DNA of 63,947 bases, counting the filler, from Vicugna vicugna (Eukaryota): assembly GCA_013265495.1 (NCBI GenBank). It is 77 parts of 75 records of this genome, joined end to end, with 100 filler letters (N's around TTAATTAATTAA, not from the genome) between each part and the next. Parts side by side here need not be neighbours in the genome. Positions count along the whole stretch, not along the records: positions 14,923 to 15,748 come from PNXW01018988.1; 76 more parts are not named here. One strand, 5' to 3'. The notes under the pieces are model-generated. The model saw nothing but the letters and a program-made list of their open reading frames with translations, searched no databases and was not told the DNA's origin. Position numbers and translations under genes: made by a program. This document shows positions 657 through 63,947 of this stretch, in pieces (position 1 is the first letter of the stretch; each line of letters begins with the position of its first letter).

Positions 657-1679
657 CCTAACACCAGTTTCGAATTCGTTGTTTTTTCACAGAAAAATAG
701 TACTGGAGCGATTCCAATGAAATATATATGTAATTTACATGAATTCCATCAAAATGTCATTCCGGGTTCCGTACATGCTACATGTATGACAGATACGAAA
801 ACATGAGTCTCTGAGTTGTGAGCATGTGTATTATTGAACTTTCATCCACCATACAAGGCATATATACACTTAGAAATATTTACTCTGACTTCATAGGTTN
901 NNNNNNNNNNNNNNNNNNNNNNNNNNNNNNNNNNNNNNNNNNNNNNNNNNNNNNNNNNNNNNNNNNNNNNNNNNNNNNNNNNNNNNNNNNNNNNNNNNNN
1001 NNNNNNNNNNNNNNNNNNNNNNNNNNNNNNNNNNNNNNNNNNNNNNNNNNNNNNNNNNNNNNNNNNNNNNNNNNNNNNNNNNNNNNNNNNNNNNNNNNNN
1101 NNNNNNNNNNNNNNNNNNNNNNNNNNNNNNNNNNNNNNNNNNNNNNNNNNNNNNNNNNNNNNNNNNNNNNNNNNNNNNNNNNNNNNNNNNNNNCTCTTGG
1201 AGCGAATTCTACCCTAGAGATATGTAATTTGAATAGATTCCATCTAAATGATATTCCGTGTTCCGTACATGCTACATACATCACGGATATGACAAACATG
1301 CATTCCTGAGTTGAGAGCATTTGGATAACTAATCTTTCATCCTCTATAAAAGGAATATTTTCATCTAGACACGTGTAGACATTTTCACAAGCTTTCCCTA
1401 AAACCAGGTTTGAATTCGTGCATTTCTCACTGAAAAATACTTCTGGAGCTATTTCCTCCTAACAGATATGTAATTTACATGAAATCCATCAACATGGCAT
1501 TCCGGGTTCCGTACTTGATACATGCATGATGGATTCGGGATTCATGTGTTTCTGAGTTGAGAGCATGTGGATTACTCAACTTTCATCCACAAAACCAGGC
1601 GTATATACACTTAGAAATATTTACTCTGACTTCTTATGTTTTTTTCTATCACCAGGTTTTAAATCAGAGATTTGGCACC
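657..1679 (+). repeat. Satellite A (AT-rich, ~245-bp monomers, ~736-bp trimer), gapped
   Basis: Recurrent CATGCTACATG..GAC..A..CG.CAAACATG...CTGAGTTG.GAGCATGTGGA motif; matches 34976-35889. Confidence 0.9.
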
Positions 1680-1779
1680 NNNNNNNNNNNNNNNNNNNNN
1701 NNNNNNNNNNNNNNNNNNNNNNNTTAATTAATTAANNNNNNNNNNNNNNNNNNNNNNNNNNNNNNNNNNNNNNNNNNNN

Positions 1780-2525
1780 AAAACTTCTTCGTGTGTGTGC
1801 TGTGGTGGAGAAACAGTGTCCACGAATATTACATGGGGCAAAGTTATTCCATTGTTAGGGGTTGTTGTTTAAACACCTCAACTTCCCATGGAGCGGCACT
1901 CACTAATACTTGGATTTAGAGCCCAAATCCCACTTTGAACCGCACTCCAGCTTATGCAATCCATCAGGGAAGAGAAGCTTAAGGATTCTACTAGAACACT
2001 GGCACTGCTCTCAGTTGGAGGAACTTTCNNNNNNNNNNNNNNNNNNNNNNNNNNNNNNNNNNNNNNNNNNNNNNNNNNNNNNNNNNNNNNNNNNNNNNNN
2101 NNNNNNNNNNNNNNNNNNNNNNNNNNNNNNNNNNNNNNNNNNNNNNNNNNNNNNNNNNNNNNNNNNNNNNNNNNNNNNNNNNNNNNNNNNNNNNNNNNNN
2201 NNNNNNNNNNNNNNNNNNNNNNNNNNNNNNNNNNNNNNNNNNNNNNNNNNNNNNNNNNNNNNNNNNNNNNNNNNNNNNNNNNNNNNNNNNNNNNNNNNNN
2301 NNNNNNNNNNNNNNNNNNNNNNNNNNNNNNNNNNNNNNNNNNNNNNNNNNNNNNNNNNNNNNNNNNNNNNNNNNNNNNNNNNNNNNNNNNNNNNNNNNNC
2401 TGCCCAAAGCAGGCGCTTATTCTTGGCTTTAGAGCCCATTCCCCACTATCGCTCACTAGTAGGTCTAGGAAAAAACTTACGGAAGTCAAGATGAGTTATT
2501 CTATTAGAACGCAGGCGCTGCTGTC
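1780..2525 (-). repeat. Satellite B (~265-bp diverged monomers), gapped
   Basis: GGATTCTA.TAGAAC...GGC.CTGCT.TCAGTTGGAGGAAC motif shared with 47447-48376. Confidence 0.85.
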
Positions 2526-2625
2526 NNNNNNNNNNNNNNNNNNNNNNNNNNNNNNNNNNNNNNNNNNNNTTAATTAATTAANNNNNNNNNNNNNNNNNNN
2601 NNNNNNNNNNNNNNNNNNNNNNNNN

Positions 2626-3077
2626 AGAACCTGGTGATAGGAAAAACCTATGAAGTCAGAGTAAATAATTTTAGTCTATATACGCCTTTTTCGGAGAGTG
2701 AAAGTTCAGTAATCCACATGCTCACAAGTCAGAAACGCATGATTGTCGAATCCGTCATGCATGGAGCATGTACAGAACCCGGAATGCCATTTTGATGGAA
2801 TTCATGTAAATTACATACCTATTAGGTGGAAATCGCTGCAGAAAAATTTTTCTGTGAAAAATGCACGAATTAGAGGAAAGCATGTTAGGTGTTAGGGAAA
2901 GCATGTTAAAATGTGTACACGTGTCTAGATNNNNNNNNNNNNNNNNNNNNNNNNNNNNNNNNNNNNNNNNNNNNNNNNNNNNNNNNNNNCAACTCAGGAA
3001 TGTATGTTTGTCGAATCCGTCATATATGTAGTATGCATGAAACACGGAATATCTTGTAGATGGAATCTATTCAAATT
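2626..3077 (-). repeat. Satellite A
   Basis: Same sequence and orientation as 16905-17822 (GAAGTCAGAGTAAATA, AACCCGGAATGCCAT). Confidence 0.9.
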
Positions 3078-3689
3078 NNNNNNNNNNNNNNNNNNNNNNN
3101 NNNNNNNNNNNNNNNNNNNNNTTAATTAATTAANNNNNNNNNNNNNNNNNNNNNNNNNNNNNNNNNNNNNNNNNNNNACCAAGGCTGGGGATAGGCACAT
3201 GCAGCAACCAGAGCAGTATCACTTGTAGAAAGGCAAAAAGAGCTCAGGGGAGGGCTCAGGGTGTCAGCCTGATTTAATTTCATTCAATAAAAGAATACCA
3301 CAGTCTAAAAATACTAGCATTTAATGGATTTGCTCTTTCTTGACATCTAAAATGTTTCCACAGCCCACATGTAACATTATCATGAACTAGTGAAAGGAAG
3401 AGTCCACAGACAGGGAAAATCAATGCCACAGACAGGCTGAAACACAGGCTGGAGGAAAGGAAGAGAAAGGAAGAAAGGGCAAAGAAGAGGGGATAGTCTG
3501 GGAAAAAGACATCATCACAAGGACTCTCAAGCATCATCCAACAATCATATAATCATTCATTCAAGAGAGAGAGTTGCTGACGTCCTATTTTGTGTAAGAG
3601 TTTACAGCTGGCAAAGAAACCGCAGCGTCCATGGTGACAGCAAGTGGAGGGGCTATAATACAATTCTGATCCCGGTACCTTGCACACTT

Positions 3690-3980
3690 TTACTCAGTAT
3701 AAAGGCAAAAAAAATAAAATAAATTAATACTATGTAAACTCTACGCATTTTTTGAAAAAAAATTAAAGAAGACCTAAATACCTGGACAGACACACCACGC
3801 ACATTGCTGGAACAAATGACAGCGCTCTTGGAATGGCAGTGCTCCACAGAGCGATCCGTATACTCAACGTGGTCTCGATCACAGTCCCAGCGGGCTCCTC
3901 TGCAGCAACTGACTAGCTGCTGCTACAAATCATACGGGAATTCGAGGGTCTCAGTAACTAAAACGTACTTGAAAAAGAAG
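3690..3980 (+). mobile_element. Old LINE-1 ORF2 fragment (degenerate)
   Basis: AAAGAAGACCTAAATA..TGG..AGAC..ACCA.G resembles the mammalian L1 ORF2 post-RT region. Confidence 0.55.
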
Positions 3981-6306
3981 NNNNNNNNNNNNNNNNNNNN
4001 NNNNNNNNNNNNNNNNNNNNNNNNTTAATTAATTAANNNNNNNNNNNNNNNNNNNNNNNNNNNNNNNNNNNNNNNNNNNNACCTTTAATTTTTATATTTA
4101 TTAGGTTTAATCAATAATTCTTATTCCTAGAAGGAGTGCCAGAAGCCTTTGTGTGTGTGTGTGTGCATTCTATCTAATTTTATAGAAAAGTCTCTAGGAT
4201 GCCCAAGTTTCAGCCAAAGAGCTTAGGCCCTTCTCAATTTTTAATTTGATTAATTGGTGTGTTGTCCCAATCATTGATCAAGTATTTCAGTCTATATATA
4301 CATATATTTTAAACTGTGGTAAATAAAACGGAGTTGTTTGAACTTTAATGTTGGGGGGCAGTAGGTGATNNNNNNNNNNNNNNNNNNNNNNNNNNNNNNN
4401 NNNNNNNNNNNNNNNNNNNNNNNNNNNNNNNNNNNNNNNNNNNCAAAAATATCTATTTACCACATTTAAAATAACCATATAAAAATATTTATCCATTTGG
4501 GATAAGCTACTTATATATTTTTTTCGACATTTTTACAATCCTTTTCCCAGTTATTCAATTTANNNNNNNNNNNNNNNNNNNNNNNNNNNNNNNNNNNNNN
4601 NNNNNNTTAATTAATTAANNNNNNNNNNNNNNNNNNNNNNNNNNNNNNNNNNNNNNNNNNNNGGGTGATGACGGTATAATTTCTGAGCATGCTGTGGCAC
4701 TTCTACCTGTGCAGACGTGGCTGGAGGATGTCCACCTTCCTCACTGATTTTCCCCAACAGCATGGTCCTCTCCCACCCCTGGATGTGAGGTTGGGAGCTC
4801 TCTGAGTAGGCCAGTCAGAGGCCGAGTCCACCAATCAGAAAATGATGAAGTACCTGGAAGTGGGTTTAATAGAAGACAAGGGCTTCCAGGTTGTCAGATG
4901 GGCTGTTCGAGTCCATTTGGTGAAAAGCTGTCCACTGTCTGTGGTTGAGCTACTTCTTTGCTGTTGAAAAGTCTGGAGTAGATGAAGGGATTTTAAAAAG
5001 CAGAAAGGAGTGATTTCAGGTGGTACGTCCACACCGGTGAGAAGTGATGGATGACCGCCTTTGTGAGTCATAGACATTCTTACAAACTTCATAAAACAGC
5101 TTTAAAAGCTCTTCAATCTGAGTGCACTTCATATGGGGTCCAGATCATCACTGGTCGCACGGTGAGGGCAAGTAACTGATAATGGCAGAAAGGACACGGA
5201 GGCATCAAAAAGGTCTCAGTCACTTTCCCTGTTTAAAGGATGCAGCACAGTGTAATATATTTTAGCTGGTTTTTCACTGAAAAGTTTTTAGTGTTTTCTG
5301 GGGCTCCCCAGTGCCCCAAGGTTCCATGCAGCTGGGTGTCCCCTCAGTGCAGCTCTGTCATCGCTTGCCCTGGGCTGACGCTGTGTCACGGGGAGCAGGA
5401 CGGTCCGCGTCCCCGGCTCCTCCGAGCTCCGTCTCCTCATCCGCAGAGCCGGGTTTCTCATCCGTGTCTACTTAGTAGGGTTGCTGAGAATCACACGTGA
5501 TGCTTCAGGTGTGACTTGTGGTTGTCTCTGTGATTGGCATATAGTNNNNNNNNNNNNNNNNNNNNNNNNNNNNNNNNNNNNNNNNNNNNTTAATTAATTA
5601 ANNNNNNNNNNNNNNNNNNNNNNNNNNNNNNNNNNNNNNNNNNNNAGAACGAGGGTATAAAAGAAATAATGAATTAAAAATTCTAGTGCCTGAATAAGTG
5701 CTACATTACACTGGCTATATTATAAGGTTAGACAACTTCATCACCAATTTACATACCACATCTTGTAGTTAGATTTTATTTATCTTTTTTTTCTAAAGGA
5801 AAAAATCATTTGTTGAGTTCTTGTGTCAGAGGTGACGAGCAGATAGCAAGTGTAAAACCGGGAATCGTGATGCTGGTCAGTCTAAGACCATCTCCGTCAC
5901 TGCACAGATCATCTTTACTCATTTTACTGCACTTTTTGGAATCACCTTCTCACTTGGAAAAACCCCTGTGTCAGTTGGATTTGTTAGTAAAACAATTCTT
6001 TTTCTTACCTAGAACATCAGTGATGTTTTCAAGATGATAAAAAAAATATCCATGGCATTTAAACAGTTGCTTGTTCTTGTAATTCATGGATCACAGTCTC
6101 ATATTTGTCACAATTGAAGAACTGTGTTTTCTGTGTGCAAATTCTCATTGCTTTGGTGGCACAGGGACACGTGTCCTTACTTGATGGAGTATGATTGTTG
6201 TTGTTTNNNNNNNNNNNNNNNNNNNNNNNNNNNNNNNNNNNNNNNNNNNNTTAATTAATTAANNNNNNNNNNNNNNNNNNNNNNNNNNNNNNNNNNNNNN
6301 NNNNNN

Positions 6307-6981
6307 TGCATGAATCATGTTCGGAATACGGAATGCCATGGATATGTAGACCATGTAAATTACATGTGTATTGTTGAGAATTCGCTCAGTTTTTCTGGTA
6401 CCTAATGTCCTATTTTAGGACCTGGTTATAGAAAAAAACTATGAAGTCCGAGAAAATATTTCTAAGGATATATACGCCTTGTTTGGTGGATGAAATCTCA
6501 GTAATCCACATGCTCAGAAGCCAGAAACATATGATTGCCGAATCCATCATACATGTAGCATGTACGGAACCCGGAATGCCATCTTGTTGGAATTCATGTA
6601 AATTACACATCTAGTGGAAATCGCTCCAGAACAATTTTTCTGTGAAAAAAGCATGAATTCGAACTTGGTGTTAGGGAAAGCTTGTGAAAATGTGTACACG
6701 TGTCTAGATGAAAATATTCCTTTTATAGAGGATGAAAGATTACTTATCCACATGCTCTCAACACAGGAATGCATGTTTGTCAATTCAGTCATGTATGTAG
6801 CATGTAATGAACACGGAATATCATGTATATGGAATCTATTCAAATTACATGTCTCTAGGGTAGAATTCGCTCCAAGAGGGTTTTTGTGAAATCGAAATGT
6901 GATCCTTGAAACTGGTGATAGGAAGAAACTACGAAATCAACGTAAATATTTCAGAGTGTATAGGTAACTTGTTTGGTGGTT
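6307..6981 (-). repeat. Satellite A
   Basis: AAATTACA anchors about 245 bp apart; matches 16905-17822. Confidence 0.9.
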
Positions 6982-7089
6982 NNNNNNNNNNNNNNNNNNN
7001 NNNNNNNNNNNNNNNNNNNNNNNNNTTAATTAATTAANNNNNNNNNNNNNNNNNNNNNNNNNNNNNNNNNNNNNNNNNNNNCTCAGCTC

Positions 7090-7614
7090 ATGTTCCAGAG
7101 CCTCCAGTGGGAGGCAGTGTTGAGTCTCCCTGTCTTCACCTCATTGGTGAGTGTCTTATTTACCTGCAGGCTTATTCAGTCTGTTAAGAGTCACCTTTAT
7201 CAAAGCTATGAAAAGCAGCTGGCTGAAACACTGGCTGCCCAGATAGAAGAGAAGTGCCACCTCATCGACCAGCTGTATGTGGCTAAACAGGAGCGTGCCA
7301 GCATGGAGATGCCTTTAAGGAACGCCGGGCTAGAGAAGGAGCCAGTAAACGTACCCAGCCTCACTAAGGCTTACAGACACTTGATGACTTTCAACCTGAG
7401 TTCAAGGAAGGAAATCAGTTTTGTCATTGAAGAACTGAGGAAAGAGAGATCCCTGCAGTCCATTCAAGCAGAGGTGACGGAGATGCTGAAAGTGCGCACG
7501 TTCCTGGAAAAGGTCACGAGAATCAGCACATCACAAGGGGCTGTTACACATGAGCAAGGGGACCGAGCACCAAGTCCTGCTAGTCCCTTTCCCAGGAGTG
7601 GGTCCTCGTGTTAA
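7090..7614 (+). CDS. Intronless cTAGE5/MIA2-derived retrocopy ORF, 174 aa (TM segment plus first coiled coil, no proline-rich tail)
   Basis: WEAVLSLPVFTSLVSVLFTCRLIQSVKSHLYQSYEKQLAETLAAQIEEKCHLI aligns by recall to cTAGE5 [53 protein letters not shown]. ATG to TAA without disruption. Expression unknown. Confidence 0.72.
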   Translation: MFQSLQWEAVLSLPVFTSLVSVLFTCRLIQSVKSHLYQSYEKQLAETLAAQIEEKCHLIDQLYVAKQERASMEMPLRNAGLEKEPVNVPSLTKAYRHLMTFNLSSRKEISFVIEELRKERSLQSIQAEVTEMLKVRTFLEKVTRISTSQGAVTHEQGDRAPSPASPFPRSGSSC

Positions 7615-7727
7615 AGCCATGCTGTGCNNNNNNNNNNNNNNNNNNNNNNNNNNNNNNNNNNNNNNNNNNNNTTAATTAATTAANNNNNNNNNNNNNNNNN
7701 NNNNNNNNNNNNNNNNNNNNNNNNNNN

Positions 7728-8463
7728 GGAATAAGGAATGCCATGGTTATATAAACAATGTAAATTACATATATATTGGTGAGTATTCGCTCAAAGAGGG
7801 TTTTCTGTTGCCAAATGTCCGGTTTTAAAACCTGGTGATAGAAAAAACTTATGAAGTCAGAGTAAATACTTCTAAGTGTATATATGCCTTGTTTGGTGGA
7901 TGAAAGTTCACTAATACACATGCTCACAACTCAAAAACTCATGTTTGTCGAATCTGTCATGCATGTAGCAAGTACGGAACCCGGAAAGCCATGTTGATGG
8001 AATTCATGTAAATTACATATCTGTTAGGTGGGAATTGCTCCAGAAGTATTTCTCTGTGAAAAATGCACGAATTCGAAACTGGTGTTAGGGAAAGCTTGTG
8101 AAAATGAGTACACGTGTCTAGATGAAAATATTCCATTTATAGAGGAAGAAAGAACACAAATCCACATGCTCTCAACTCAGGAATGCATGTTTGTTGACTC
8201 CGTCATGCATGTAGCATGTACGGATTACAGATTATAATTATGATGGAATCCATTCAAATTAAATATCTCTAGGGTAGAATTCGTNNNNNNNNNNNNNNNN
8301 NNNNNNNNNNGAAGAAGCTCCGAAGTCAAAGGAAATATTTCAAAGTGCATAGGTAACTTGTTTGTAGGTTGAAACATCGGTCATGCGCATGTTGACAACT
8401 CAGAAATGCATGTTTGCAGAATTCGTGATACATGAATCATGTTCAGAATACGCAATGGCATGG
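7728..8463 (-). repeat. Satellite A
   Basis: About one full trimer; matches 16905-17822. Confidence 0.9.
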
Positions 8464-9144: not shown

Positions 9145-9912
9145 CAACTTGGGAATTACTGTGACCCCTGAAAAATGCGTGTGCTCTTTGCCCACGTCCA
9201 GCACACACAGGAAGAAGTATTCTGGGGTTCTGAGATTGGGGAGGTTCCTCCAAAAGACAGCAGCACCTGGGTTTTAATAGAATCCCTTAGCTTGACTTCC
9301 CTAAGTGTTTTCCTAGGCCTAGCAGTAAACGATGGTGGGGGATGGGCTCTAAAGCCATGTATTAGCGAGTGCATCTCTGTGGGTAGTAGAGGGTTTTAAA
9401 CTACTTCCCCAACCTTGGAACACCTGTGCCCCATAAAGATGCGTGGAANNNNNNNNNNNNNNNNNNNNNNNNNNNNNNNNNNNNNNNNNNNNNNNNNNNN
9501 NNNNNNNNNNNNNNNNNNNNNNNNNNNNNNNNNNNNNNNNNNNNNNNNNNNNNNNNNNNNNNNNNNNNNNNNNNNNNNNNNNNNNNNNNNNNNNNNNNNN
9601 NNNNNNNNNNNNNNNNNNNNNNNNNNNNNNNNNNNNNNNNNNNNNNNNNNNNNNNNNNNNNNNNNNNNNNNNNNNNNNNNNNNNNNNNNNNNNNNNNNNN
9701 NNNNNNNNNNNNNNNNNNNNNNNNNNNNNNNNNNNNNNNNNNNNNNNNNNNNNNNNNNNNNNNNNNNNNNNNNNNNNNNNNNNNNNNNNNNNNNNNNNNN
9801 NNNNNNNNNNNNNNNNNNNNNNNNTTTAGGCCAGGAGGGAAAGATGGGGGTTGGGCTTGGAAGCCACGTAGCAGTGAGTGACACCTGATCCACTGAGGAA
9901 GTACTTAGAGGA
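9145..9912 (+). repeat. Satellite B, gapped
   Basis: GGGGAGGTTCCTCCAA..GACAGCAGCACCTGGGTT.TAATAGAATCCCTTAGCTTGAC motif; matches 22443-23315. Confidence 0.88.
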
Positions 9913-11207: not shown

Positions 11208-12360
11208 GTTCCGGAATCCTGAGCGTGGGGAGGTTCCACCAACGGTCGGAAATGCTTGTGTTCTAACGGAATGCTTTAGCTCGTATCTCCTGAGGGTTTT
11301 CCTAATGTCTCTGTGCCAGGGAATGCTAGGGGTGATTCCAGGATATCCCAGTGTCCGAGGCTGCCTCCCCAAGGTCAGGGAAGGTATTTCTCNNNNNNNN
11401 NNNNNNNNNNNNNNNNNNNNNNNNNNNNNNNNNNNNNNNNNNNNNNNNNNNNNNNNNNNNNNNNNNNNNNNNNNNNNNNNNNNNNNNNNNNNNNNNNNNN
11501 NNNNNNNNNNNNNNNNNNNNNNNNNNNNNNNNNNNNNNNNNNNNNNNNNNNNNNNNNNNNNNNNNNNNNNNNNNNNNNNNNNNNNNNNNNNNNNNNNNNN
11601 NNNNNNNNNNNNNNNNNNNNNNNNNNNNNNNNNNNNNNNNNNNNNNNNNNGGACTTCCCCGAACAGGGAACACCTGTGACTGAAGAGAGCTGCGTGGAGT
11701 TGTCTCTCGAGCTCCCCCACGCACTGACAATGGTTCCGGAATCCTGAGCGTGGGGAGGTTCCACCAACGGTTGGCAGCGCGTGGGTTCTAACGGAATGCC
11801 TAAGCTCGTCTCCCCTGAGGATTTTCCTAATGTCTCTGTGCCAGGGAATGCAAGGGGGGTTTACAGGATATAACAGTGACCGAGGCTGCCTACCCAATGT
11901 CAGGAAAGGTATATCCCGGACTTCCTCGAACAGAGAAATCCTGTGACTGAAGAGAGCTGCGTGGAGTTGTCTCTCGAGCACCACCACGCTCTGACAATGG
12001 TTCCGGAATCTTGAGAATGGGGAGGTTCCAGCAACGATCGGCAACGTGTGGGTTCTAACGGAATGCCTAAGCTCGTCTCCCCTGAGGGTTTTCCTAATAT
12101 CTCTGTGCCAGGGAATGCTAGGGGTGATTGCAGGATATCCCAGTGTCAGAGGCTGCCTCCCCANNNNNNNNNNNNNNNNNNNNNNNNNNNNNNNNNNNNN
12201 NNNNNNNNNNNNNNNNNNNNNNNNNNNNNNNNNNNNNNGAGCTGCGTGTTCTCTCGAGCTCCCCCACGCACTGACAATGGTTCCGGAATCCTGAGCTTGG
12301 GGAAGTTCCAACAATGGTCAGCAGCGAGTGGGTTCTAACGGAATGCCTAAGCTCATCTCC
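11208..12360 (+). repeat. Satellite C (267-bp CpG-rich monomer), gapped
   Basis: Tandem near-identical copies of TGACAATGGTTCCGGAATCCTGAGCGTGGGGAGGTTCCACCAACG. Confidence 0.95.
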
Positions 12361-14922: not shown

Positions 14923-15748
14923 TAAACGAAACTTTGTGTTCCCTTCAAGATAGGTGAAGGATGGCTTCACAGACAAATATATCTCAGAACTGAGCATGTG
15001 GAGAGACGTTCGTTCATCCAGCACAAACGGAACGGGTTGCAGGAGAAATCCTTACTCTGGTTTCTCAGTCTGTTTCCTAGTGTCGGTTTGAAGTGCCTGC
15101 CGTTTTCACTGTAAAACCGAGTTGGAGCTTGTACCTCCCCATATATATGTATGGAGTGGAGTTTGCAACTTAAACGAAACTTTGTGTTCCCTTCAAGATA
15201 GGTGAAGGATGGCTTCACAGACAAATATATCTCAGAACTGAGCATGTGGAGAGACGTTCGTTCAACCAGCTAAAAGGGAACGGGTTGCAGGAAAAACACT
15301 GACTATGTTTTCTCAGTCTGTTTCCTAGTGCCGGTTTGAAGTGCCTGCCGTTTTAACTGTAAAACCGAGTTAGAGCTTGTTCCTCCCCATATATATGTAT
15401 GGAGTGGAGTTTTCAACCGAAAAGAAACTTTGTGTTCCCTTCAAGCTAAAAAAAAAGCTTTCACACACACTTATCTCTCAGAACTGAGCATGTGGAGAGA
15501 AGTTCGTACATCCAGCACAAAGGGAACGGGTTGTAGGAGAAACCCTTACTCTGGTTTCTCAGTCTGTTTCCTAGTGCCGGTTTGAAGTGCCTGCCGTTTT
15601 CTCTGTAAACCGTGTTGGAGCTTGTACCTCCCCATATATATGTATGCAGTGGAGTTTGCAACTGGAAAGAAACTTTGTGTTCCCTTTAAGCTAGGTGAAG
15701 GTTGGCTTTCACACACAATTAACTCTCAGAACTCAGCATGTGGAGAGA
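14923..15748 (+). repeat. Satellite D (248-bp monomer, ~3.3 copies)
   Basis: TAAACGAAAC at 14923 and 15171; GAGAGACG at 15001 and 15249. Confidence 0.95.
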
Positions 15749-15848: not shown

Positions 15849-16284
15849 AAAGTTCTTCATGTGTGTCCTGGAGGTGGGGAAACAATGTCCACGATTATTT
15901 ATTGGATCACAGGTGTTCCCAGGTTGGGGAAGTAGGTAAACACCTCCACTGCCCATAGAGAGGCACTCGCTATTACTAGTCTTTAGTGCCCAACACCCAA
16001 CTTCGCTCACAGCCTGGCCAATGGAAACACTCAGGGAAAGCAAGCCACATGATATTATAAGTTCCCAGTTGCTGCTGTCATTTGGAGGTGCCTACCAACA
16101 CTCAGTATACCAGAACTGTTCTTCGTGGGTGTGCTGGAGGTGGGGAAAGGGAGACCACGCATTTATATGGGGGGCAGGTGTTTAAAGGTTAGGGATGTAG
16201 TTTTAAAATCTCCATGCAAGGCACTCGCTAATACCTAGGTATAGAGACGAAACCCCACATTAGATCAAAGCCTGGCCTATGTAA
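15849..16284 (-). repeat. Satellite B
   Basis: GCTGCTGTCATTTGGAGG and GGCACTCGCTA motifs as in 47447-48376. Confidence 0.85.
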
Positions 16285-16384: not shown

Positions 16385-16804
16385 TTCCCTTTGTGCTAGA
16401 TGAACGAACGTCTCTCCACATGCTGTGTTTTGAGAGTTAATCGTGTGTGAAAGCCGTCCTTCACCAAGCTTGCTGGAAACACAAAGTTTCTCTTCAGTTG
16501 CAGACTCCAATCCATACATATATATGGTTAGGTACAAGTTCCAAATCGGTTTTACAGTGAAAACTGCAGGAACTTCAAACTGGCACTAGGAAACAGACTG
16601 AGAAACCAGAGTAAGTGTTTCTCCTGCAACCTGTTCCCTTTGTGCTAGATGAACGAACGTCTCTCCACATGCTCAGTTTTGAGAGTTAAGCTTGTGTGAA
16701 AGCCTCCTTCACCTAGCTTGTTGGGAACACAAAGATTCTCTTCAGTTGCAGACCCACTACATCCATATATATGGGCAGGTACAAGCTCCAACTCGGTTTT
16801 ACAG
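16385..16804 (-). repeat. Satellite D
   Basis: Reverse complement of 14923-15748 (GATGAACGAACGTCTCTCCACATGCT occurs twice). Confidence 0.93.
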
Positions 16805-16904: not shown

Positions 16905-17822
16905 AAATTACATGTGTATTGGTGAGAATTCGCTCAAAGAGTCTTTTATCGTGCCAAATGTACGATTTTAGTACCTGGTGACAGAAAAAACCTCTGAAGG
17001 CAGAGTAAATATTTCTAAGTGTATATATGCCTTCTTTGGTGGATGAAAGGTCAGTAATGAAGATGCTGAGAGCTCAGAAACACATGTTTGCCGAATCCGA
17101 CATGCATGAGCATGTACAGAACCCGGAATGCCATGTTGATGGAATTCATGTGAATTAAATATCTGTTTGGTTGAAATCGCTCCAGAAGTGTTTTTCTGAG
17201 AATAATGCACGAGTTCTAAACTGGTGTTAGGAAAAGATTGTGAAAATGGGTATATGTGTCAAGATGAATATATTGTATTTATAGAGGATAAAAATCAGAA
17301 ATCCACATGCTCTCAACTCAGGAATGCATGTTTGTCGAATCCGACATGCATGTAGCATGTATGGAACACTGAATATCATTTACATGGAATCTATTCAAAT
17401 TACATATCTCTAGGGTAGATTTCGCTCCAAGAGGGTTTTTCTGGGATCAATGTGATTCTTGAAACTGGTGATAGGAGAAGCAACGAAGTCCAAGGAAATA
17501 TTTCAGAGTGCATTAGTAACTTGTTTGGTGGTTGAAATATCTGTCATGTGCATGTTCACAGCTCAGAAATTCAATTTGAGGAATTCGTGATGCATGAATC
17601 ATGTTCGGAATACGGAATGCCATGGTTATGTAAACAATGTAAATTACATGTGTATTGGTGAGAATTCGGTTAAAGAGTGTTTTCTACTGCTAAATGTCTG
17701 ATTTTAGAACCTGGTGATACAAAAAAATAATGAAGTCACAGTAAAAGTTTAAAGTATTATATATGCCTTCTTTGGTTGATGAAAGTTCACTAATCCACAT
17801 GCTCACAACCCAGAAATGCATG
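16905..17822 (-). repeat. Satellite A, full 736-bp trimer plus
   Basis: AAATTACATGTGTATTGGTGAGAATTCG at 16905 and 17641; diverged internal anchors at 17152 and 17397. Confidence 0.95.
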
Positions 17823-20664: not shown

Positions 20665-21632
20665 GGAGACGAGCATAGGCATTCCGTTAGAACCCACACG
20701 CTGCCGACCATTGGTGGGACTTCCCCACGCTCAGTATTTCAGAAAAATTGTCAGTGCGTCGGGGAGCTCGAGAGAAAAATCCACGCAGCTCTCTTCAGTC
20801 ACAGGTGTCCCCTGTTCGGGGAAGTCCGATAAATAACTTCCCAGAATTTGGGGAGACAGCCTCGGTCACTGGGATATCCTGCAATCACCCCTAGCATTCC
20901 CTGGCACAGAGACATTAGGAAAAACCTCAGGGGAGACGAGCTTAGGCATTCCGTTTGAACCCACACGCTGCCGAAGAACCTCCCAACGCTCAGGATTCCG
21001 GAAATATTTCAGTGCGTGGAGGAGCTCGAGAGACAAGTCCACGCAGCTCTCTTCAGTCACAGGTGTTCCCTGTTCGGGGAAGTCCGAGAAATACCTTCCC
21101 TGACAATGGGGATGCAGCCTCTGACACTGGGATATCCTACAATCACCCCTAGCATTCCCTGGCACAGAGACATTAGGAAAACAATCAGGGGAGACGGGCT
21201 TAGGCATTCCGTTAGAACCCACGCGCTGCCGACCGTTGGGGGAACCTCCCCACGCTCAGGATTCCGGACCGATTGTCAGTGCGTGGGGGAGCTTGAGATA
21301 CAAGTCCACGCAGCTCTCTTCAGTCACAGGTGTTCCCAGTTCGGGGAAGCCAAAGAAATACATTCCCTGATCTTGGGGAGGCTGCCTCGTTCACTGGGAT
21401 ATCCTGCAATCTCCAATAGCATTCCCTGGCACAGAGACATTAGGAAAACCCTCAGGGGAGACGAGGTTAGGCATTCCGTTAGAACCCACGCGCTACCGAA
21501 CGTTGATGGAACCTCCCCACGCTCAGGATTCCGGAACCATTGTCAGTGCGTGGGGGAGCTCGAGAGACAACTCCACGAGACTCCCTGCGGTCACAGGTGT
21601 TCCCTGTTCGGGGAAGTCTGGGAAATACCTTC
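20665..21632 (-). repeat. Satellite C (~3.6 copies)
   Basis: GCATTCCCTGGCACAGAGACATTAGG at 20894, 21152 and 21419 (258 bp with a small deletion, then 267 bp). Confidence 0.96.
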
Positions 21633-22442: not shown

Positions 22443-23315
22443 AGAGCCTATTTATGGGATGTGGGTGTTTAACCTAGAACCCACAACAATGGAATAACTC
22501 TGCCCCCTGAAAAATGAGTGTGCTAATTTCCCCACCTCCAGCAAACACAGGAAGAAGTGTTCTGATATTCTAAGTGTGGGGAGGTTCCTCCAACAGAGAG
22601 CACACCTGGGTTCTAATAGAATCCCTTAGCTTGACATCAATATGTGTTTTCCTAGACCTATTAGTGAGCGATGGTGGGGGATTGGCTCTAAAGCCAGGTA
22701 TGAGCGAGTGCATCTTTGTGGATACTGGAGGGTTTGAAAATACTTCAACAACCTTGGAACACCTTTGCCCCCATAAAGATGTGTGGACTCTGTTTCCCCA
22801 CCTCCAGCACACACACGGAGACGTACTGAGGTATCCTGAGTGTGTGGAAGTTCCTCCAAATGACAGCAGCGCCTGCGTTCTAATAGAATAACTCAGCTTG
22901 TATTCCCTGAGTGTTTCCCTAGGCCAGGCCAAGAGCGAAAGCTGGGGGTTGGGCTTGGAGGCCAAGTAGCAGCTTGTGCCAACTGATTGACTGAGGAAGT
23001 ACTCAGGGAACTCACCTACCGGGGAACACCTGTGTCACCATTCATATGCATGGATTGGGGCTGCACACCTCCCCCACACACAAGAGATTCTCCGGAGTCC
23101 TGAGTGTTGGGAAGTTCCTCCAAGTGACAGCTGCACCCGGGTTCTATACAATTCCTTAGATTGTCTTCCCTGATGGCTTGTCCTGCCAGGAGTGCGGGGG
23201 AAATTGGAGGTTGGGCTCTAAAACGAAGTATTAGCGAGTGCATATCCATGGGATGTGGAGGAGTTTAAGTTACATCCTCCAACCTAGGCATACCTGTGCC
23301 CCATGAAAAAAGCGT
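22443..23315 (+). repeat. Satellite B (three different ~265-bp monomers)
   Basis: GA(G/A)GTTCCTCCAA at 22581, 22847 and 23111. Confidence 0.92.
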
Positions 23316-23415: not shown

Positions 23416-23978
23416 CGAATTCTCACCAATACACATGTAATTTACATTGTTTACAAAACCTTGGAATTCCTTATTACGAGCATGATTCATGCATCACGAA
23501 TTCCTCCAACATGCATTTCTGAGTTGTGAACATGCGCATGACTGATGTTTCAAGCACTAAAAAAGTTAAATATGCACTTTTAGATATTTATTTGGCTTCG
23601 TAGCTTCTTCAAATCACCAGTTTTAATAATCACACTTAGATCCCAGATAAACAATCTTGGAGGGAATTCTACCCTAGAGATATGTAATTTGAATAGATTC
23701 CATCTACATGATATTCCTTTATCCGTGCATGCTACATATATGACGAATTCGTCAATCATGCGTTTCTGACTTGTGAACATGTGGATTACTGACCTTTCAT
23801 CCACCAAACAAGGCGTATATACAGTTAGAAATATTTACTCTAACTTCATAGATTTTTCTATCACCAGGTTCTTAAATCGGACATTTGGCACCAGAAAACA
23901 CTCTTTGAACGAATTCTCACAAATAAGATTTCTTATTTCGAACATGTTTCATGCAACACGGATTCTTCAAACATGCAT
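23416..23978 (+). repeat. Satellite A, dimeric (494-bp) variant
   Basis: CGAATTCTCAC at 23416 and 23910. Confidence 0.88.
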
Positions 23979-24695: not shown

Positions 24696-25546
24696 AAACC
24701 GAGTTGGAGTTTGTCCCTCTACATATATATGTAAGGACTGTAGTATGCAACTTAATAGATCCTTTGTGTTCCCCTCAACTATTGTGAAGGAGGGCTTTAA
24801 CACACACTTATCTCTCAGAAATGAGCATGTGGAGAGACGTTCGTTCATCCAAAACAAAGGGAACGGATTGTAGGAGAAACACTTACTCTGGTTTCTCAGT
24901 CTGTTTCCTAGTGCCGGTTTGAAGTTCCTGCGGTTTGCACTGTAATACCGAGTTGGAGCTTGTACCTCCCCATATATATGTATGGAGTGGACTTTGCAAG
25001 TGTCAAGAAACTTTGTGTTCCCTTCAAGCTAGGTGAAGGACGGCTTTCACACACACTTATCTCTCCGAACTGAGCACGTGGAGAGACGTTCGTTCATCCA
25101 AAACAAAGGGAACGGATTGTAGGAGAAACACTTACTCTGGTTTCTCAGTCTGTTTCCTAGTGCCGGTTTGAAGTTCCTGCGGTTTGCACTGTAATACCGA
25201 GTTGGAGCTTGTACCTCCCNNNNNNNNNNNNNNNNNNNNNNNNNNNNNNNNNNNNNNNNNNNNNNNNNNNNNNNNNNNNNNNNNNNNNNNNNNNNNNNNN
25301 NNNNNNNNNNNNNNNNNNNNNNNNNNNNNNNNNNNNNNNNNNNNNNNNNNNNNNNNNNNNNNNNNNNNNNNNNNCTTTCTCAGTCTGTTTCCTACTGCCG
25401 GTTGGAAGTTCCAGCGGTTTGCACTGTAAACCGAATTGGAGCTTGTACATCCCCATATATATGTATGGATTGGACTTTGCAACTGAAGAGAAATTTTGTG
25501 CTCCCTTTAAGCTAAGTGAAGGATGGCTTTCACACACACTTATCTC
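24696..25546 (+). repeat. Satellite D, gapped
   Basis: GAGAGACGT at 24832 and 25081 (249 bp). Confidence 0.95.
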
Positions 25547-25646: not shown

Positions 25647-26042
25647 CAGGATTCCGGAACCATTGTCAGAGCGTTGGGGAGCTCGAGAGACCACTCCACG
25701 CAGCTCTCCTCAGTCCCCGGTGTTCCCTGTTCGGAGAAGTCCGTGAAATATCTTCCCTGAACTTGGGGAGGCAGCCTCTGACACTGGGATATCCTGTAAT
25801 CACCCCTAGCATTCCCTGGCATAGAGACTTTAGGAAAACCATTAGGGGAGACGAGCTTAGGCATTCCGTTAGAATCCACGTGCTGCCGAGCGTTGGTGGA
25901 ACCTCCCCACGTTCACTGGCACAGATAGGAAAACCCTCAGGGGAGACGAGCTTAGGCTTTCCGTTAGAACCCACGCGCTGCCGACCGTTGGTGGAACCTC
26001 CCCACGCTCAGGAATCCGGAACAATTGTCAGTGAGGTGAGTG
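25647..26042 (-). repeat. Satellite C with an internally deleted monomer
   Basis: GAGCTTAGG at 25853 and 25948 (95 bp instead of 267). Confidence 0.92.
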
Positions 26043-26142: not shown

Positions 26143-26701
26143 ATAAAACCCTCTTGGAGCGAATTCTACCCTAGAGATATGTAATTTATATAGATTCCAT
26201 CTACATGATATTCTGATTTCCTTACATGCTACATACATGACGGATTTGACAAACATGCATTTTGAGTTGAGAGCATGTGGATTACTAATCTTTCATCCTC
26301 CATAAAAGGAATAATTTCATCTAGACTCGTGTACACATTTACACAAGCTTTCCCTAAAACCAGTTTCAACTCGTGCTTTTTTCACAGAAATATAGTTCTG
26401 GAGCGATTTCAAACTAACAGATGTGTAATTTACATGAATTCCAACAACATGGCATTACGGGTTCCGTAAATGCTACATGTATGACNNNNNNNNNNNNNNN
26501 NCGAATCGGCAATCATACGTTTCTGGCTTGTGAGCATGTGGATTACTGACCTTTCATCCACCAAACAAGGCGTATATAGGCTTAGAAATATTTACTCGGA
26601 CTTCATAGTTTTTTCTATCACCAGGTTCTAAAATCGGACATTTGGCCCCAGAGAACACTCTTTGAGCGAAATCTCACCAATAAAAATGTAATTTGCATTG
26701 T
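26143..26701 (+). repeat. Satellite A
   Basis: Matches 1195-1679 and 34976-35889. Confidence 0.9.
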
Positions 26702-31140: not shown

Positions 31141-31828
31141 AAGTAGCAGCAACCGCCCCCCGATGGAATGTGGAAGTATTTAGAGAACTTCACCCTAATG
31201 GAGAACAAGTGTGATCCCATTCATCTACTTGGATATTGGCTCCACATCTCCCCGCCACACAAGGTTGGGTTCCGGAATCCTGAGTGTGGGGAAGTTCCTC
31301 CTACTGTCAGCCGCGCTTGTGTTCTACTTGAATCCCTTAACTTGCCTTCCCTGATGGTTTGGCTAGGCTGGAGTGCAGGAGAATGTGGGGTTTCGGCTCT
31401 AATACCAATTATTAGCCAATGCATCTACATGGGAATTTGAGAAATATTACCTACAACCAGCAACGTGAGTATACATGTGCCACCTGAAAGATGCCTGGAC
31501 TCTGTTTCCCCACCTCCAGCACACAAACGAGGAAGTGTTCTGCTACCCTGAATGGGGGGAGTTTCCTCCAAATGACAGCAGCACCTGGGGTCTAATTGAA
31601 TCCCTTAGCTTGACTTCCTTGAGTGTTTACCTAGGCCGGGCTGGGAGCGAATGTGGGGGTTGGGCTCCAAAGACAAGGATTAGCAAGTGCCCCTCTATGG
31701 GCAGTGGAGGTGTTTAAACCAAATCCCCAACTTTGGAACACCTCTTCCCCCATAAAGATGCGTGAAATGTCTTTCCCAGCTCCAGAACACCCACGAAGGC
31801 TTTTAGATATCCTTAGTGTTGGGGGGGG
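31141..31828 (+). repeat. Satellite B
   Basis: Shares monomer types with 22443-23315 (AAGTAGCAG type followed by CCCTGATGG type). Confidence 0.88.
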
Positions 31829-34975: not shown

Positions 34976-35889
34976 ATAGGTTTTTTCTATTTCCAGTTCC
35001 TAAAATAGGACATTGGGCACTAGAAAAAAACTCTATGTGTGAATTCTCAAAAATACACATGTAATTTACATTGTTTACATAACCATGGCTTTCTGTATTC
35101 CGAACATGTTTCATGTTTCATGGATTCCTCAAACATGCATTTCTGAGTTGTGAACATGCGCATGACTGATGCTTCAATCACCAAACACGTTACATATGCA
35201 GTTTGGAATATTTACTTTGACTTCAAAGCTTCTTCCTATCACCAGTTTCAAAAATCACACTTTGACCCCAGAAAAACACTCTTGCAGCGAATTCTACCCT
35301 AGAGATATATAATTTGAATAGATTTCATCAACATGATATTCGGTGTTCCGTACATGCTACATGCATGACGGAGTCGACAAACATGCATTCCTGAATTGAG
35401 AGAATGTGCATTACTAATCTTCCATCCTGTATAAAAGGAAAATTTTTATCTAGACACGTGTACTCATTTTCAAAAGCTTTCCCTAACACCAGTTTCGAAT
35501 ACGTGCATTTTTCACAGAAAAAGGAGCGATTTTATCCTAATAGATATGTAATTTACATGAATTCCATCAACATGGCATTCTGGGTTCCGTACATGCTACA
35601 TGCATGAAAGTTCTGGCAAACATGCGTTTCTGAGTTGTGAGCACGTGGATTACTGACCTTTAATTCACCAAACAAGGCATATATAAACTTAGAAATATTT
35701 ACTCTGACTTCATAGGTTTTTTCTATCATCAGGTTCTTAAATCGGACATTTGGCACCAGAAAGCACTCTTTGAGCAATTCCTCACCAATATGCATTTAAA
35801 TTAAATTTTTTATATTACCATGGCATTGCATATTCCGAACATGATTCATGCATCAACGATTCCTCAAACATGCATTTCTGAGTTGTGAA
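34976..35889 (+). repeat. Satellite A, full trimer plus
   Basis: AAACATGCATTTCTGAGTTGTGAA at 35131 and 35866 (735 bp). Confidence 0.95.
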
Positions 35890-38758: not shown

Positions 38759-39184
38759 CTTTCCATATTCTAAATTCTGAGTTTTATATTCTCTATTATA
38801 TATCCTATATGCTGTGTTTTTTATTCTATTTTCGAGATCCCATATTCTGCATACCGTAATCTATATTCTATATACTGTGTTCTACTTTCTATATTCTAAT
38901 TCCCATATTCAGTATTTTGTATTCTATATTCTAAATTCTGTGTTCTGCAATCCATGTTCTAGATACTGGGTTCTAGATTCTCTATTCTATACTCTAAATT
39001 CTGTGTCCTGCATTCTATATTCTAAATTTTAAAATTTTATATTCAGTATTCTGTATTCAATATTCTTAATTCTGTGTTCTGATTCCATTTCTAAATCCTG
39101 ATTTCTATATTCTCATTTATATATTGTATATTTTGTGTACTTATTTCTATAAACTACATTCTATATTCAGCATTCCGTATTTAT
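38759..39184 (-). repeat. Satellite E (7-bp AGAATAT-type units), diverged
   Basis: ATATTCT/GTGTTCT/AAATTCT heptamers. Confidence 0.9.
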
Positions 39185-44939: not shown

Positions 44940-45947
44940 ATCCCCCACGCACTGACAATTGTTTCCAAATCCTGAGCGTGGGAAAGTTTCACCAACGATT
45001 GGTAGAGCGTGGGTTCAAACGGAATGCCTAAGCTCGTCTCCCCTGAAAGTTTTCCTTATTTCTGGCTGCCTGGGAATGCTAGGGATCTGCCCTGGAATGC
45101 CCAGGGTCCGGGGCTGCCACCCCAATGTCAGGGAATATATTTCTCGGACTTCCCCCTAACAGGGAACAACTGTGACTGAAGACAGCTGCGTGGAGTTGCC
45201 TTTTGCACTCACCCACGCTCTGATTATGGTTCAGGAATCCCGAAATTGGGGAGGTTACACCAACGGTCGGCAGCGCGTGGGTTCTAANNNNNNNNNNNNN
45301 NNNNNNNNNNNNNNNNNNNNNNNNNNNNNNNNNNNNNNNNNNNNNNNNNNNNNNNNNNNNNNNNNNNNNNNNNNNNNNNNNNNNNCCCCAAGGTCAGGGA
45401 AGGTATTTCTCGGACTTCCCCATAACAGGGAACACCTGTGACTGAAGAGAGCTGCGTGGAGTTGTCTCTCGAGCTCCCACACGCTCTGATTATTGTTCCG
45501 GAATCCTGAGCATGGGGAGGTTCCACCAACTGTCGGCAGCGCGTGGGTCCAAACGGAATGCCTAAGTTCGTCTCCCCTGAAGGTTTTCCGAATGTCTCTC
45601 TGCCAGGGAATGCTAGGAGTGTTTGCAAGTATTCCCAGTGACAGAGGCTACCTCCCCAATGTCAGAGAAGTTATTTCTCGGACTTCACCCTAACACGGAA
45701 CAGCTGTGACTGAAGAGAGCTGCGTGGAGTTGTCTCTCGATCTCCCCCACGCTCTGTTTATGGTTCCGGAATCCTGAGCGTTTGCAGGTTCCCTAACGGT
45801 GTGTAGCACGTGCGTTCTAATAGAATGCCTAAGCTCGTCTCTCCTGAGGGTTTTCATAATGTCTGGCTTCCAGGAAATGCTAGGGATCTGCGCTGGAATG
45901 CTCAGGGTCAGCGGCTGCCACCCCAATGTCAGGGAAGATATTTCTCG
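44940..45947 (+). repeat. Satellite C, more diverged subtype, gapped
   Basis: Same 267-bp motif order; variant monomer at 45061 and 45862. Confidence 0.93.
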
Positions 45948-47446: not shown

Positions 47447-48376
47447 AATACTTGATTTAGAGCCCAATCCCCACTTTCCCCCACTCTCCAGTCTAGGCAT
47501 GCCGTCAGGTAAGACAATCTAAGGGATTCTATTAGAACCCAGACGCTGCTGTCATTTGGAGGAGCCTCCCCACAGTCAGGATACCTGAGCACGTCTCCGT
47601 GTGTGTGATGGCGGTGGGGAAACAGATTCCATGCATCTTTATGGGGCACAGGTGTTCCCAAAGAGGGAATGTAATTTTAAAACCTTCACTGCCCATAGAG
47701 AGGCACTCGCTATTACTTGGATTTAGAGCCCAACCCCCACCTTCGCTCCCATCCCGTCCTTGGAAAACACTCAGGGAAAGTATCCTAAGGGATCCTATTT
47801 GAACCCAGATGCTGCTGCCAGTGAGAAGTGCCTCCCCACACTCAGGATACCAGAACAATTCTTCATGTGTGTGCTGGAGGTGGGGAAACAGAATCCACGC
47901 ATTTTCAAGGAGCACAGGTATTCCAAGTTTGTGGGATTTTGGTGAATAATTTCCTCTCCCCATGGAGAAGCACTCGCTAATACTTGGATTTATAGCCCAA
48001 CCCCCAATTTCCCCCGCACTCCGCCCTTGCAAGCCATCATTGAAGACAAGTAAATGTATTGAATTAGAACCCAGGCGCTGCTGTTAGTTGGAGGAACCTC
48101 CCCACACTCAAAACATCTGAGCCAGATATCGTGTGTGTGCTGGAGGAGGGTAACTGAGTCCACACATCTTTATGGGGGCACAGGTGTTCCCAGGTGGTGG
48201 ATATACTTTAACCACCTCCACTGCCAAAAGATAGGAACTCGCTAATTCTTGGTTTTAGAGCACATCCCATAACTTAGCTCAAAACCCGACCAACCCATTA
48301 CTTCGCTCAAAACACCACCAAGGAAAATACCCAGGGAAGTCAATATAATGGATCCAATTAGATCCCAGGTGCTATT
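47447..48376 (-). repeat. Satellite B (~3.5 monomers)
   Basis: GCTGCTG anchors at 47545, 47811 and 48077 (266 bp). Confidence 0.92.
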
Positions 48377-51784: not shown

Positions 51785-52020
51785 TCGTTTCCCCTGAGGA
51801 TTTTCCTAATGTCGCTGTGCCAGGGAATGTTAGGGGTGATTTCAGGATGTCCCAGTGACAGAGGCTGCCTCCGCATGTTCAGGGAAGGTATTTTTCGGAC
51901 TTCACCGAACAGGGAACACCTGTGACTGAAGAGAGATGCGTGGAGTTGTCTCTCGATCTCCCCCACGCACTGTCAATGGTTCCGGAATCCTGAGCGTGGG
52001 GAGGTTCCACCAAAGGTCGG
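51785..52020 (+). repeat. Satellite C
   Basis: About 0.9 monomer, matches 11651-12163. Confidence 0.93.
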
Positions 52021-52120: not shown

Positions 52121-52277
52121 GTTTGCAGAATATCCCAGTGACAGAGGCTGCATCCCCAATGTCAGGGAATGTATTTCTCGGACTTCCCCGAACAGTGAAC
52201 ACCTGTGCCTGAAGGGAAATTCGTGGAATTTCCTCTCGATCTCCTCCACGCACTGACAATGGTTCCGGAATCCTGAG
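52121..52277 (+). repeat. Satellite C
   Basis: Partial monomer ending ACTGACAATGGTTCCGGAATCCTGAG. Confidence 0.92.
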
Positions 52278-55239: not shown

Positions 55240-55339
55240 NNNNNNNNNNNNNNNNNNNNNNNNNNNNNNNNNNNNNNNNNNNNTTAATTAATTAANNNNN
55301 NNNNNNNNNNNNNNNNNNNNNNNNNNNNNNNNNNNNNNN

Positions 55340-63878: not shown

Positions 63879-63947
63879 CGTCTTCACTGTAAAACCGATT
63901 TAGAGCTTGTACCTCCCCATATACATGAATGGAGTGGAATTTGCAAC
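63879..63947 (+). repeat. Satellite D (cut by window end)
   Basis: CACTGTAAAACCGA.TT.GAGCTTGTACCTCCCCATATA. Confidence 0.88.

What the first reader, a model, noticed from the sequence alone, without database searches (positions are those of the whole stretch)
15485..15650. Satellites A and D are colinear, and A-D may form one superfamily
Seen: D (from 15485) and an A monomer (from 26531; also ~35639) share TGAGCATGTGGA-N10-TTCATCCA-N23-AGAAA...TTACTC at identical spacing, and continue in near register through GCAC...AAAAC...TT.GAGC and ATA.A.ATGTA. Monomer lengths are 248 versus ~245 bp. D GGGTTGTAGGAGAAACACTTACTCTGGTTTCTCAGTCTGTTT also aligns without gaps to B GGGTTCTAATAGAATCCCTTAGCTTGACTTCCCTGAGTGTTT (composite of copies). 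Inference: four satellites with different GC content and architecture descend from one ~250-270-bp unit, and the retained blocks may be constrained. I cannot tell whether this is already described.
Basis: partly seen in the sequence, partly recalled or inferred. Interest (0 to 1): 0.7.

Follow-up and report, generated by a model that had tools for sequence, protein, structure and literature searches.

The report
Camelid satellite DNAs share one ancestor
Four tandem repeats in this camel-family genome, one of them the published candidate centromere repeat of the llama, appear to be old relatives of a single repeat unit of about 250 bases; this is a useful family tree for camelid centromere work but a known way for satellite DNA to evolve, and the shared motifs show no clear sign of being protected.

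Summary
The window is a string of short joined contigs from a camelid. D (249 bp) aligns end to end with each subunit of A: 55-59% identity, 2-4 tiny gaps, 0 of 300 shuffles reaching it under four scorings. A is a trimeric higher-order repeat of about 740 bp. B (266 bp) and C (267 bp) are clearly homologous (about 70%). The A/D to B/C link is weaker but probably real. D-B passes shuffles. With the phase fixed and the first-noticed region left out, the remaining 60% of the unit still aligns (profile z about 4; for C, 0-1 of 535 real-DNA decoys as high). Most single cross pairs are not significant. There is only a weak hint of length conservation. D is the llama candidate centromere repeat of Melters 2013, and B is the unit inside published alpaca VpaSat15/16. 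I found neither the A trimer nor the four-way kinship in print. It is a new member of a known kind (satellite superfamily, library-type turnover).

The parts
14923..15748 (+). Satellite D array, 3.3 copies of a 249-bp monomer (monomers 14990-15237, 15238-15483, 15484-15731); holds the finding's 15485-15650
   Evidence: TRF period 248, 88% matches; monomer cuts; about 96% identical by eye to the llama 248-bp repeat
16385..16804 (-). Satellite D, 1.7 copies
24696..25546 (+). Satellite D, two pieces (24696-25219, 25375-25546)
63879..63947 (+). Satellite D fragment at the window end
26502..26701 (+).
34976..35889 (+). Satellite A, 1.24 higher-order units: A3 35152-35397, A2 35398-35636 (private 7-bp deletion), A1 35637-35885
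   Evidence: self-match at lag 736 is 79% against 66% at lag 249; subunits
16905..17822 (-). Satellite A, 1.25 higher-order units (A1 17806-17559, A3 17557-17315, A2 17314-17073)
   Evidence: lag 736: 80% against 68%; head-to-tail joints of 16905-17640 in three public runs
657..8463 (.). Further A pieces: 657-899 (+), 1194-1679 (+), 2626-2930 (-), 2990-3077 (-), 6307-6981 (-), 7728-8284 (-), 8311-8463 (-); also 23416-23978 (+) and 26143-26485 (+)
22443..23315 (+). Satellite B, 3.3 divergent 266-bp monomers; strand given in the sense that aligns with D
47447..48376 (-). Satellite B, about 3.3 monomers. Other B pieces: 1780-2028, 2400-2525, 9145-9448, 9825-9912, 15849-16284, 31141-31828, 52378-52526, 52646-52827, 59184-59763, 63122-63778
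   Evidence: a VpaSat16 motif matches 6 places, all in B pieces
20665..21632 (-). Satellite C, 3.7 copies of a 267-bp, 57% GC monomer; strand given in the sense that aligns with D
11208..12360 (+). Satellite C pieces 11208-11392, 11651-12163, 12239-12360. Other C pieces: 25647-26042, 44940-45287, 45386-45947, 51785-52020, 52121-52277

Best explanation
A, B, C and D are heterochromatic satellite DNAs descended from one ancestral tandem unit of about 250-265 bp. Shown: D and the three A subunits are full-length colinear homologs; B and C are homologs; A is a tandem trimeric higher-order repeat of high copy in three organisms. Probable (about 0.85): the A/D and B/C lineages share the same unit, in the same phase and strand, and differ by about 17 bp of indels. 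Inferred mechanism: library-type turnover. One variant monomer or multimer is amplified by unequal crossover and conversion, becomes uniform within its own arrays and stops exchanging with the others. After an early split into a 249-bp and a 266-bp lineage, each lineage gave one uniform monomeric array (D, C) and one multimeric array of diverged subunits (A trimer; B, probably a 7-mer). D is the likely current centromeric or pericentromeric repeat, inferred from its abundance in llama; CENP-A binding is not shown. The shared motifs are what remains by chance at about 57% identity, not protected binding sites.
For: A-D: local scores 212-267 against a null of 62-63 +/- 9, z 17-23; 0 of 300 shuffles in 4 of 4 scorings for 3 of 3 subunits; 55.1, 58.8 and 57.9% identity over 245-247 pairs with 2, 4 and 3 gaps of 1-2 nt; an A-only HMM hits 4 of 5 D pieces at E 6e-27 to 4e-4. 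B-C: 177 of 244 identical, z 60. Cross-link: D-B 0 of 300 shuffles in 4 of 4 scorings, Gumbel p 1e-4 to 2e-3; a B-only HMM hits 2 of 5 raw D pieces over more than one monomer (E 1e-5, 2e-4), with no non-family or reversed piece reported. Held-out part: z positive for 8 of 8 pairs in all 3 scorings; profile z 3.6-4.3, at most 1 of 300 shuffles, also with D left out; C held-out z 3.8-3.9, with 0 and 1 of 535 real decoys as high. Best phase equals the predicted one in 12 of 12 scans. Higher-order repeat. Tree: D, A1, A2, A3, C and B rows form separate groups, A subunits together 100/100. D is the llama 248-bp repeat, 2.9% of the genome.
Against: Of the 8 cross pairs only D-B is significant alone in every scoring; A2 and A3 against B or C never are. 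AD and D-only HMMs do not find B or C pieces (best E 0.83). Under one of two scorings 8 of 729 metagenome decoys, all one sequence, scored as high against D as B did. B held-out alone is weak (z about 2; 19 and 31 of 535 decoys as high). Decoys reach robust z 5.3 against 4.2-5.9 for AD x B, and 5.95 against 2.7-4.6 for the A-only profile. The tests share sequences and are not independent. Location, CENP-A binding and the order of events were not testable. Weak signs of constraint exist.
Confidence: 0.8

Rival explanations
1. There are two unrelated pairs, A/D and B/C; the D-B likeness is chance.
For: Seven of 8 cross pairs fail at least one scoring; no AD-profile hit on B or C pieces; one real decoy sequence equals the D-B local score under one scoring.
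Against: The held-out region aligns in the phase fixed by D-B, also for A-only against B/C, which does not use D; the predicted phase is best in 12 of 12 scans.
Confidence: 0.12
2. One reading: the retained blocks, or the spacing between them, are under functional constraint (protein binding or nucleosome spacing).
For: A copies vary slightly less where the other units agree: 149/2094 against 228/2671, one-sided permutation p 0.037; all four units p 0.049. Block 1 in D has 1 mismatch in 53. D-A alignments show 2-4 gap events where 6.4-7.5 are expected at the within-family indel rate (6-20 of 500 simulations as low for A1, 26-55 for A3, 62-102 for A2).
Against: No clustering of identity: best-window and variance tests p 0.12-0.95; the 12-bp run p 0.05 for A1 and 0.16-0.81 otherwise. 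D: 0.071 against 0.076, p 0.39. In A1 block 1 is no better kept than the rest (0.083 against 0.089). No exact CENP-B box. No shared dyad, folding or 10-bp phasing signal. The three D-A comparisons share one branch, and the p values are uncorrected for several tests.
Confidence: 0.15
3. D is a recombinant of an A-like and a B-like unit rather than a plain sister lineage.
For: D has no stem of its own in the tree and sits between A and B/C; around positions 40-55 D resembles B/C and not A.
Against: Sites with D=A only and D=B only are interspersed (53 runs against 53.0 expected, p 0.54), and the excess of D=B sites disappears when B is aligned to A instead. No B-C intermediate monomers among 42 fragments.
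Confidence: 0.05
4. The families were amplified independently from the same part of a dispersed element (LTR, LINE or gene), so they share a source but not a tandem ancestor.
For: Satellites can arise from mobile elements (recalled). No repeat library could be searched here.
Against: A and D align round the whole unit with the same length, and the B model matches D across the tandem junction (model positions 138-494 of a doubled unit). No non-satellite piece of the window matches; Rfam finds nothing.
Confidence: 0.04

Closest known systems
Lama glama 248-bp candidate centromere repeat (Melters et al. 2013, PMC4053949; seen: passages, supplement 1 part 4, table row)
   Same: D is this repeat: by eye 8 substitutions and 1 gap over 249 columns against my D consensus; both 45% GC; 2.9% of the llama genome.
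   Different: The paper lists it alone, with higher-order structure 'not found', and calls it centromeric from abundance only. In what I saw it names no relatives; A, B and C motifs are absent from its sequence file (line breaks can hide matches).
Alpaca VpaSat14-1864, VpaSat15-3718, VpaSat16-1836 (listed as 1863 bp) (PMC13751797; seen: whole main text, spreadsheet supplement with cells cut at 400 characters; slide supplement unreadable)
   Same: The visible starts of VpaSat15 and VpaSat16 read like B by eye; a 25-nt VpaSat16 motif matches 6 places, all in B pieces. Their lengths are about 7, 14 and 7 times 266.
   Different: The paper treats them as 1.8-3.7-kb monomers without primers or FISH. 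Its main text never gives 248, 266 or 267 as a unit size, nor 'higher-order' or Melters. It set centromeric arrays aside. VpaSat14 could not be matched by eye.
SAC-SAT, the NOR-associated satellite of South American camelids (Mendoza Cerna et al. 2026, Genomics; not held; seen only as cited in PMC13751797)
   Same: I recall a 267-bp motif for it, which is the length of C. This is recalled and comes from no call.
   Different: Its sequence was not seen, so identity with C is untested.
Equid CENPB-sat and 37cen (PMC13477059; seen: passages); primate alpha-satellite layers and higher-order repeats (PMC4053949 passages; otherwise recalled)
   Same: Same way of working: an older satellite gives rise to a newer centromeric repeat, relatives persist beside it, and multimers of diverged monomers form.
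   Different: No sequence relation was tested or is expected. Here no unit has an exact CENP-B box, and the position of the families on chromosomes is unknown.

Membership tests
Llama 248-bp candidate centromere repeat (for D) | Sequence identity over the whole monomer | tested here: met
   About 96% by eye; not aligned by a program
Llama 248-bp candidate centromere repeat (for D) | Tandem monomer of about 248 bp, 45% GC | tested here: met
Functional centromeric satellite | CENP-A bound, at the primary constriction | not testable with these tools
   No ChIP, FISH or chromosome-level sequence
CENP-B-box satellite | All 9 essential positions of the box (pattern recalled) | tested here: not met
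   No exact match in the window; best 8 of 9 in A3, 6-7 of 9 in the other units; 19 of 500 shuffles of the trimer reach 8
Higher-order repeat (for A) | Multimer copies more alike than adjacent monomers | tested here: met
   79-80% at lag 736 against 66-68% at lag 245-249 in 2 of 2 pieces long enough; three subunit clades
Higher-order repeat (for A) | Head-to-tail arrays at high copy | tested here: met
   End-to-start joints in 51, 40 and 24 contigs of runs X1, X6, X10; 7,791-36,292 contigs laid per run
Higher-order repeat (for B, 7-mer) | Fixed order of seven subunits | tested here: inconclusive
   Recurring subtypes and published lengths of 7 x 266; pieces hold at most about 3.5 monomers
VpaSat15/16 (for B) | Sequence match to the published consensus | tested here: inconclusive
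   Motif matches and by-eye likeness over the first 400 bases only
SAC-SAT (for C) | Sequence match and NOR location | not testable with these tools
   Paper not held
Satellite superfamily (A+D) | Significant full-length homology between distinct families | tested here: met
Satellite superfamily (A+D+B+C) | Significant homology beyond one block, same phase and strand | tested here: met
   Met at moderate strength; weak for single pairs
Dfam/Repbase camelid satellites or mobile elements | Match to a library entry | not testable with these tools
   No such library is offered

The most novel reading that the evidence does not exclude
The candidate centromere repeat, an undescribed trimeric higher-order repeat, the 7-mer VpaSat14-16 arrays and the NOR-associated SAC-SAT are all one very old superfamily. 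It has changed at 40-60% of its bases while keeping its unit length within each lineage almost free of indels. Camelids would then hold a layered record of centromere-repeat replacement like primate alpha satellite, under constraint on length rather than on motifs, in a family with a frozen karyotype, and the 'SAC-specific' satellite would be a re-amplified old relative rather than new DNA.
Probability: 0.25. Interest if true: 0.55.

Novelty: new member of a known kind. Interest (0 to 1): 0.33.

Why it matters
Camelid satellites were catalogued only recently, and the centromeric ones were left out of that work (PMC13751797). A monomer-level family tree gives the units needed to annotate camelid centromeres in complete assemblies, suggests that some published kilobase 'monomers' are multimers of a 266-bp unit, and makes the library hypothesis testable with homologous units in both camelid tribes. 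It does not change how satellites are thought to evolve, and no function is shown.

Tried and rejected
No whole genome is held for the window. Scan of metagenome contigs with the A/D motif: 104 loci, none extends beyond the motif (best E 0.035); they were reused as decoys. Viral contigs with a C motif: 0. Rfam at gathering threshold: 0. Internal sub-repeat in the six units: none above shuffles. Dyads, folding and 10-bp phasing: isolated values only (D dyads 4 of 100, A2 folding z -2.3, A1 phasing 9 of 300, among 18 tests). Transition excess as a sign of homology: uninformative, since even clear homologs show about one third transitions. The transition-aware scoring was added after the first result; all four scorings are reported. 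Percent identity of gapped global alignments does not separate cross pairs from shuffles and is not used. The null for best-over-phase used a coarser step and 25 shuffles, so I rely. My first A2 consensus carried a 7-bp deletion from its seed copy (239 bp). Searches used it; one search corrected it to 246 bp and gave the same result for D-A2, A2-B and A2-C; the profile tests were not rerun. The six RNA runs that hold D do so at shares of 0.13-0.24; only X15 was laid, and only on A (28 contigs, none 95% alike): no evidence on transcription. The SAC-SAT paper is not held. bioRxiv 10.64898/2026.05.25.727640 was irrelevant (one passage). Earlier notes of this scan: nothing on these repeats. Dating was not attempted: there is no calibration.

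Full report
What the window is. It is a string of short contigs (47,012 non-N bases) joined by N runs, most with a fixed 12-nt linker, so neighbours in the window are mostly not neighbours in the genome. The source is a camelid: D matches the llama repeat and an alpaca satellite primer matches exactly at 61797-61816. I could not tell which tribe. No whole genome is held.

The observation. The shared motif is real: 20 matches in the window against a chance mean of 0.01, all in A or D pieces. The 42-bp D-B block matches at 28 of 42.

Anatomy. D is a 249-bp monomer, 45% GC, copies 92.6% identical to consensus. C is a 267-bp monomer, 57% GC, 91.2%. B is 266 bp, 52% GC, only 80.2%, with recurring subtypes. 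A (37-39% GC) is a higher-order repeat of three subunits: copies one trimer apart are 79-80% alike, adjacent monomers 66-68%. The subunits are 249, 246 and 246-248 bp, 73-78% alike as consensuses, about 741-743 bp in all; the two full copies in the window measure 735-736 bp. Contigs of three public DNA runs, from three coded organisms that also hold D, cover the whole trimer at very high summed depth and join its end to its start in 51, 40 and 24 contigs. So A is a real tandem array and not an assembly artefact.

A and D. D aligns to each A subunit round the whole unit: 55.1, 58.8 and 57.9% identity with 2, 4 and 3 gaps of 1-2 nt. No shuffle of 300 reached the score in any of 12 tests (3 subunits by 4 scorings). 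A model of A alone finds 4 of 5 D pieces and a model of D finds 10 of 12 A pieces. This is common descent. B and C are 177 of 244 identical.

For it: D-B beats all 300 shuffles in 4 of 4 scorings. A B model hits 2 of 5 raw D pieces over 1.3 units, across the tandem junction, and no decoy piece. After fixing the phase from the first local hit and discarding D positions 1-101, the rest scores above the null mean for 8 of 8 pairs. As profiles the held-out part gives z 3.6-4.3, also when D is removed. Against real DNA, C held-out is reached by 0 and 1 of 535 decoys. The best of 90 phase-strand settings is the predicted one, to within a few steps, in 12 of 12 scans. Against it: A2 and A3 never match B or C alone, and D-C and A1-B do so in only 2 of 4 scorings. 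AD and D models do not find B or C. One unrelated sequence, present as 8 near-identical loci among 729 decoys, equals the D-B score under one of two scorings. B held-out is weak (19 and 31 of 535). The tests overlap. I put the link at about 0.85.

Constraint. The conserved-looking blocks are what about 57% identity gives by chance. Identity is not clustered. D copies vary at 0.071 where the A subunits agree and 0.076 where they do not. Pooled over A there is a small effect (0.071 against 0.085, one-sided p 0.037, uncorrected), which uneven mutation rates could give. There is no exact CENP-B box; an 8-of-9 site in A3 arises in 19 of 500 shuffles. That is suggestive for A1, marginal for A3, not significant for A2, and the three share a branch.

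How it most likely works. A tree of the 43 fragments spanning at least 190 positions (shorter ones were left out) has separate D, A1, A2, A3, C and B groups, the A subunits together and B with C; the root and the long branches are uncertain at this divergence. The simplest history (inferred) is one ancestral unit, an early split into 249-bp and 266-bp lineages, and later amplifications by unequal exchange that produced two uniform monomeric arrays (D, C) and two multimeric ones (A, B). A chimeric D is not supported. D's abundance in llama makes it the candidate centromere repeat; that is an assumption of the source paper, not a binding result.

What is known. D is the Lama glama entry of Melters et al. 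2013: 248 bp, 45% GC, 2.9% of the genome, higher-order structure not found (PMC4053949; passages and supplements). The 2026 alpaca catalogue (PMC13751797; whole main text and spreadsheet) excluded centromeric arrays, invokes the library hypothesis, and lists VpaSat14-16 at about 7 or 14 times 266 bp; VpaSat15 and 16 read like B. C may be SAC-SAT (267 bp, recalled; paper not held). Equids show the same kind of history (PMC13477059, passages). Library searches found no description of the A trimer or of kinship among these units. Dfam, Repbase, most subscription journals, the Vidal-Rioja papers of 1987 and 1994, the SAC-SAT paper, the slide supplement and the cut parts of the spreadsheet were not seen and could hold either.

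Verdict. A real and apparently unreported kinship among camelid satellites, firm for A-D and B-C and probable for all four, with no good evidence of motif constraint. New member of a known kind; interest 0.33.

Noticed in passing
all six satellite units; window 16905-17640 in run X1: Transitions are only about one third of differences: 614 of 1745 copy-versus-consensus mismatches, 20 of 57, 20 of 54 and 27 of 81 between consensuses, 30 of 92 places in X1. Mammalian DNA usually shows about two thirds (recalled). Other repeated pieces of the window are low too (128 of 317), and there is no single-copy control. Unexplained.
   Followed up: partly
17421-17435 (+), 6866-6880 (+), 26149-26163 (-), 7786-7800 (+): An 8-of-9 CENP-B-box-like site in subunit A3 (and in one A1 copy); D lacks it at the homologous place. 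Chance level 19 of 500.
   Followed up: yes
38759-39184, 54555-55994, 60471-61263, 62299-63021: A fifth satellite: an AT-rich 7-bp unit with a 63-bp higher period; no BLAST link to A-D.
   Followed up: no
61783-62198, 49045-49330, 48477-48708, 52928-53125: Pieces of the ~5.3-kb alpaca macrosatellite family VpaSat08/09/11/12: exact primer match at 61797-61816; the others by BLAST link or by eye.
   Followed up: partly
PMC13751797 Table S3: VpaSat14 (1864), VpaSat15 (3718) and VpaSat16 (1863) are about 7, 14 and 7 times 266 bp, so they may be multimers of B rather than long monomers.
   Followed up: partly
25647-26042; 23898-23978: Internal rearrangements in single copies: a duplication of about 95-100 bp in a C copy and a jump within an A copy. 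Public contigs also show rare one-subunit skips of 246-269 bp in A.
   Followed up: no
run X15 on window 16905-17640: This tick-metagenome RNA run holds D words (share 0.24) but its 28 A-like contigs are all under 95% alike, 25 of them under 90%; possibly another host species with a diverged A.
   Followed up: no
whole window: Contigs are joined by N runs with a fixed 12-nt linker that has stops in all frames; adjacency across linkers means nothing.
   Followed up: yes
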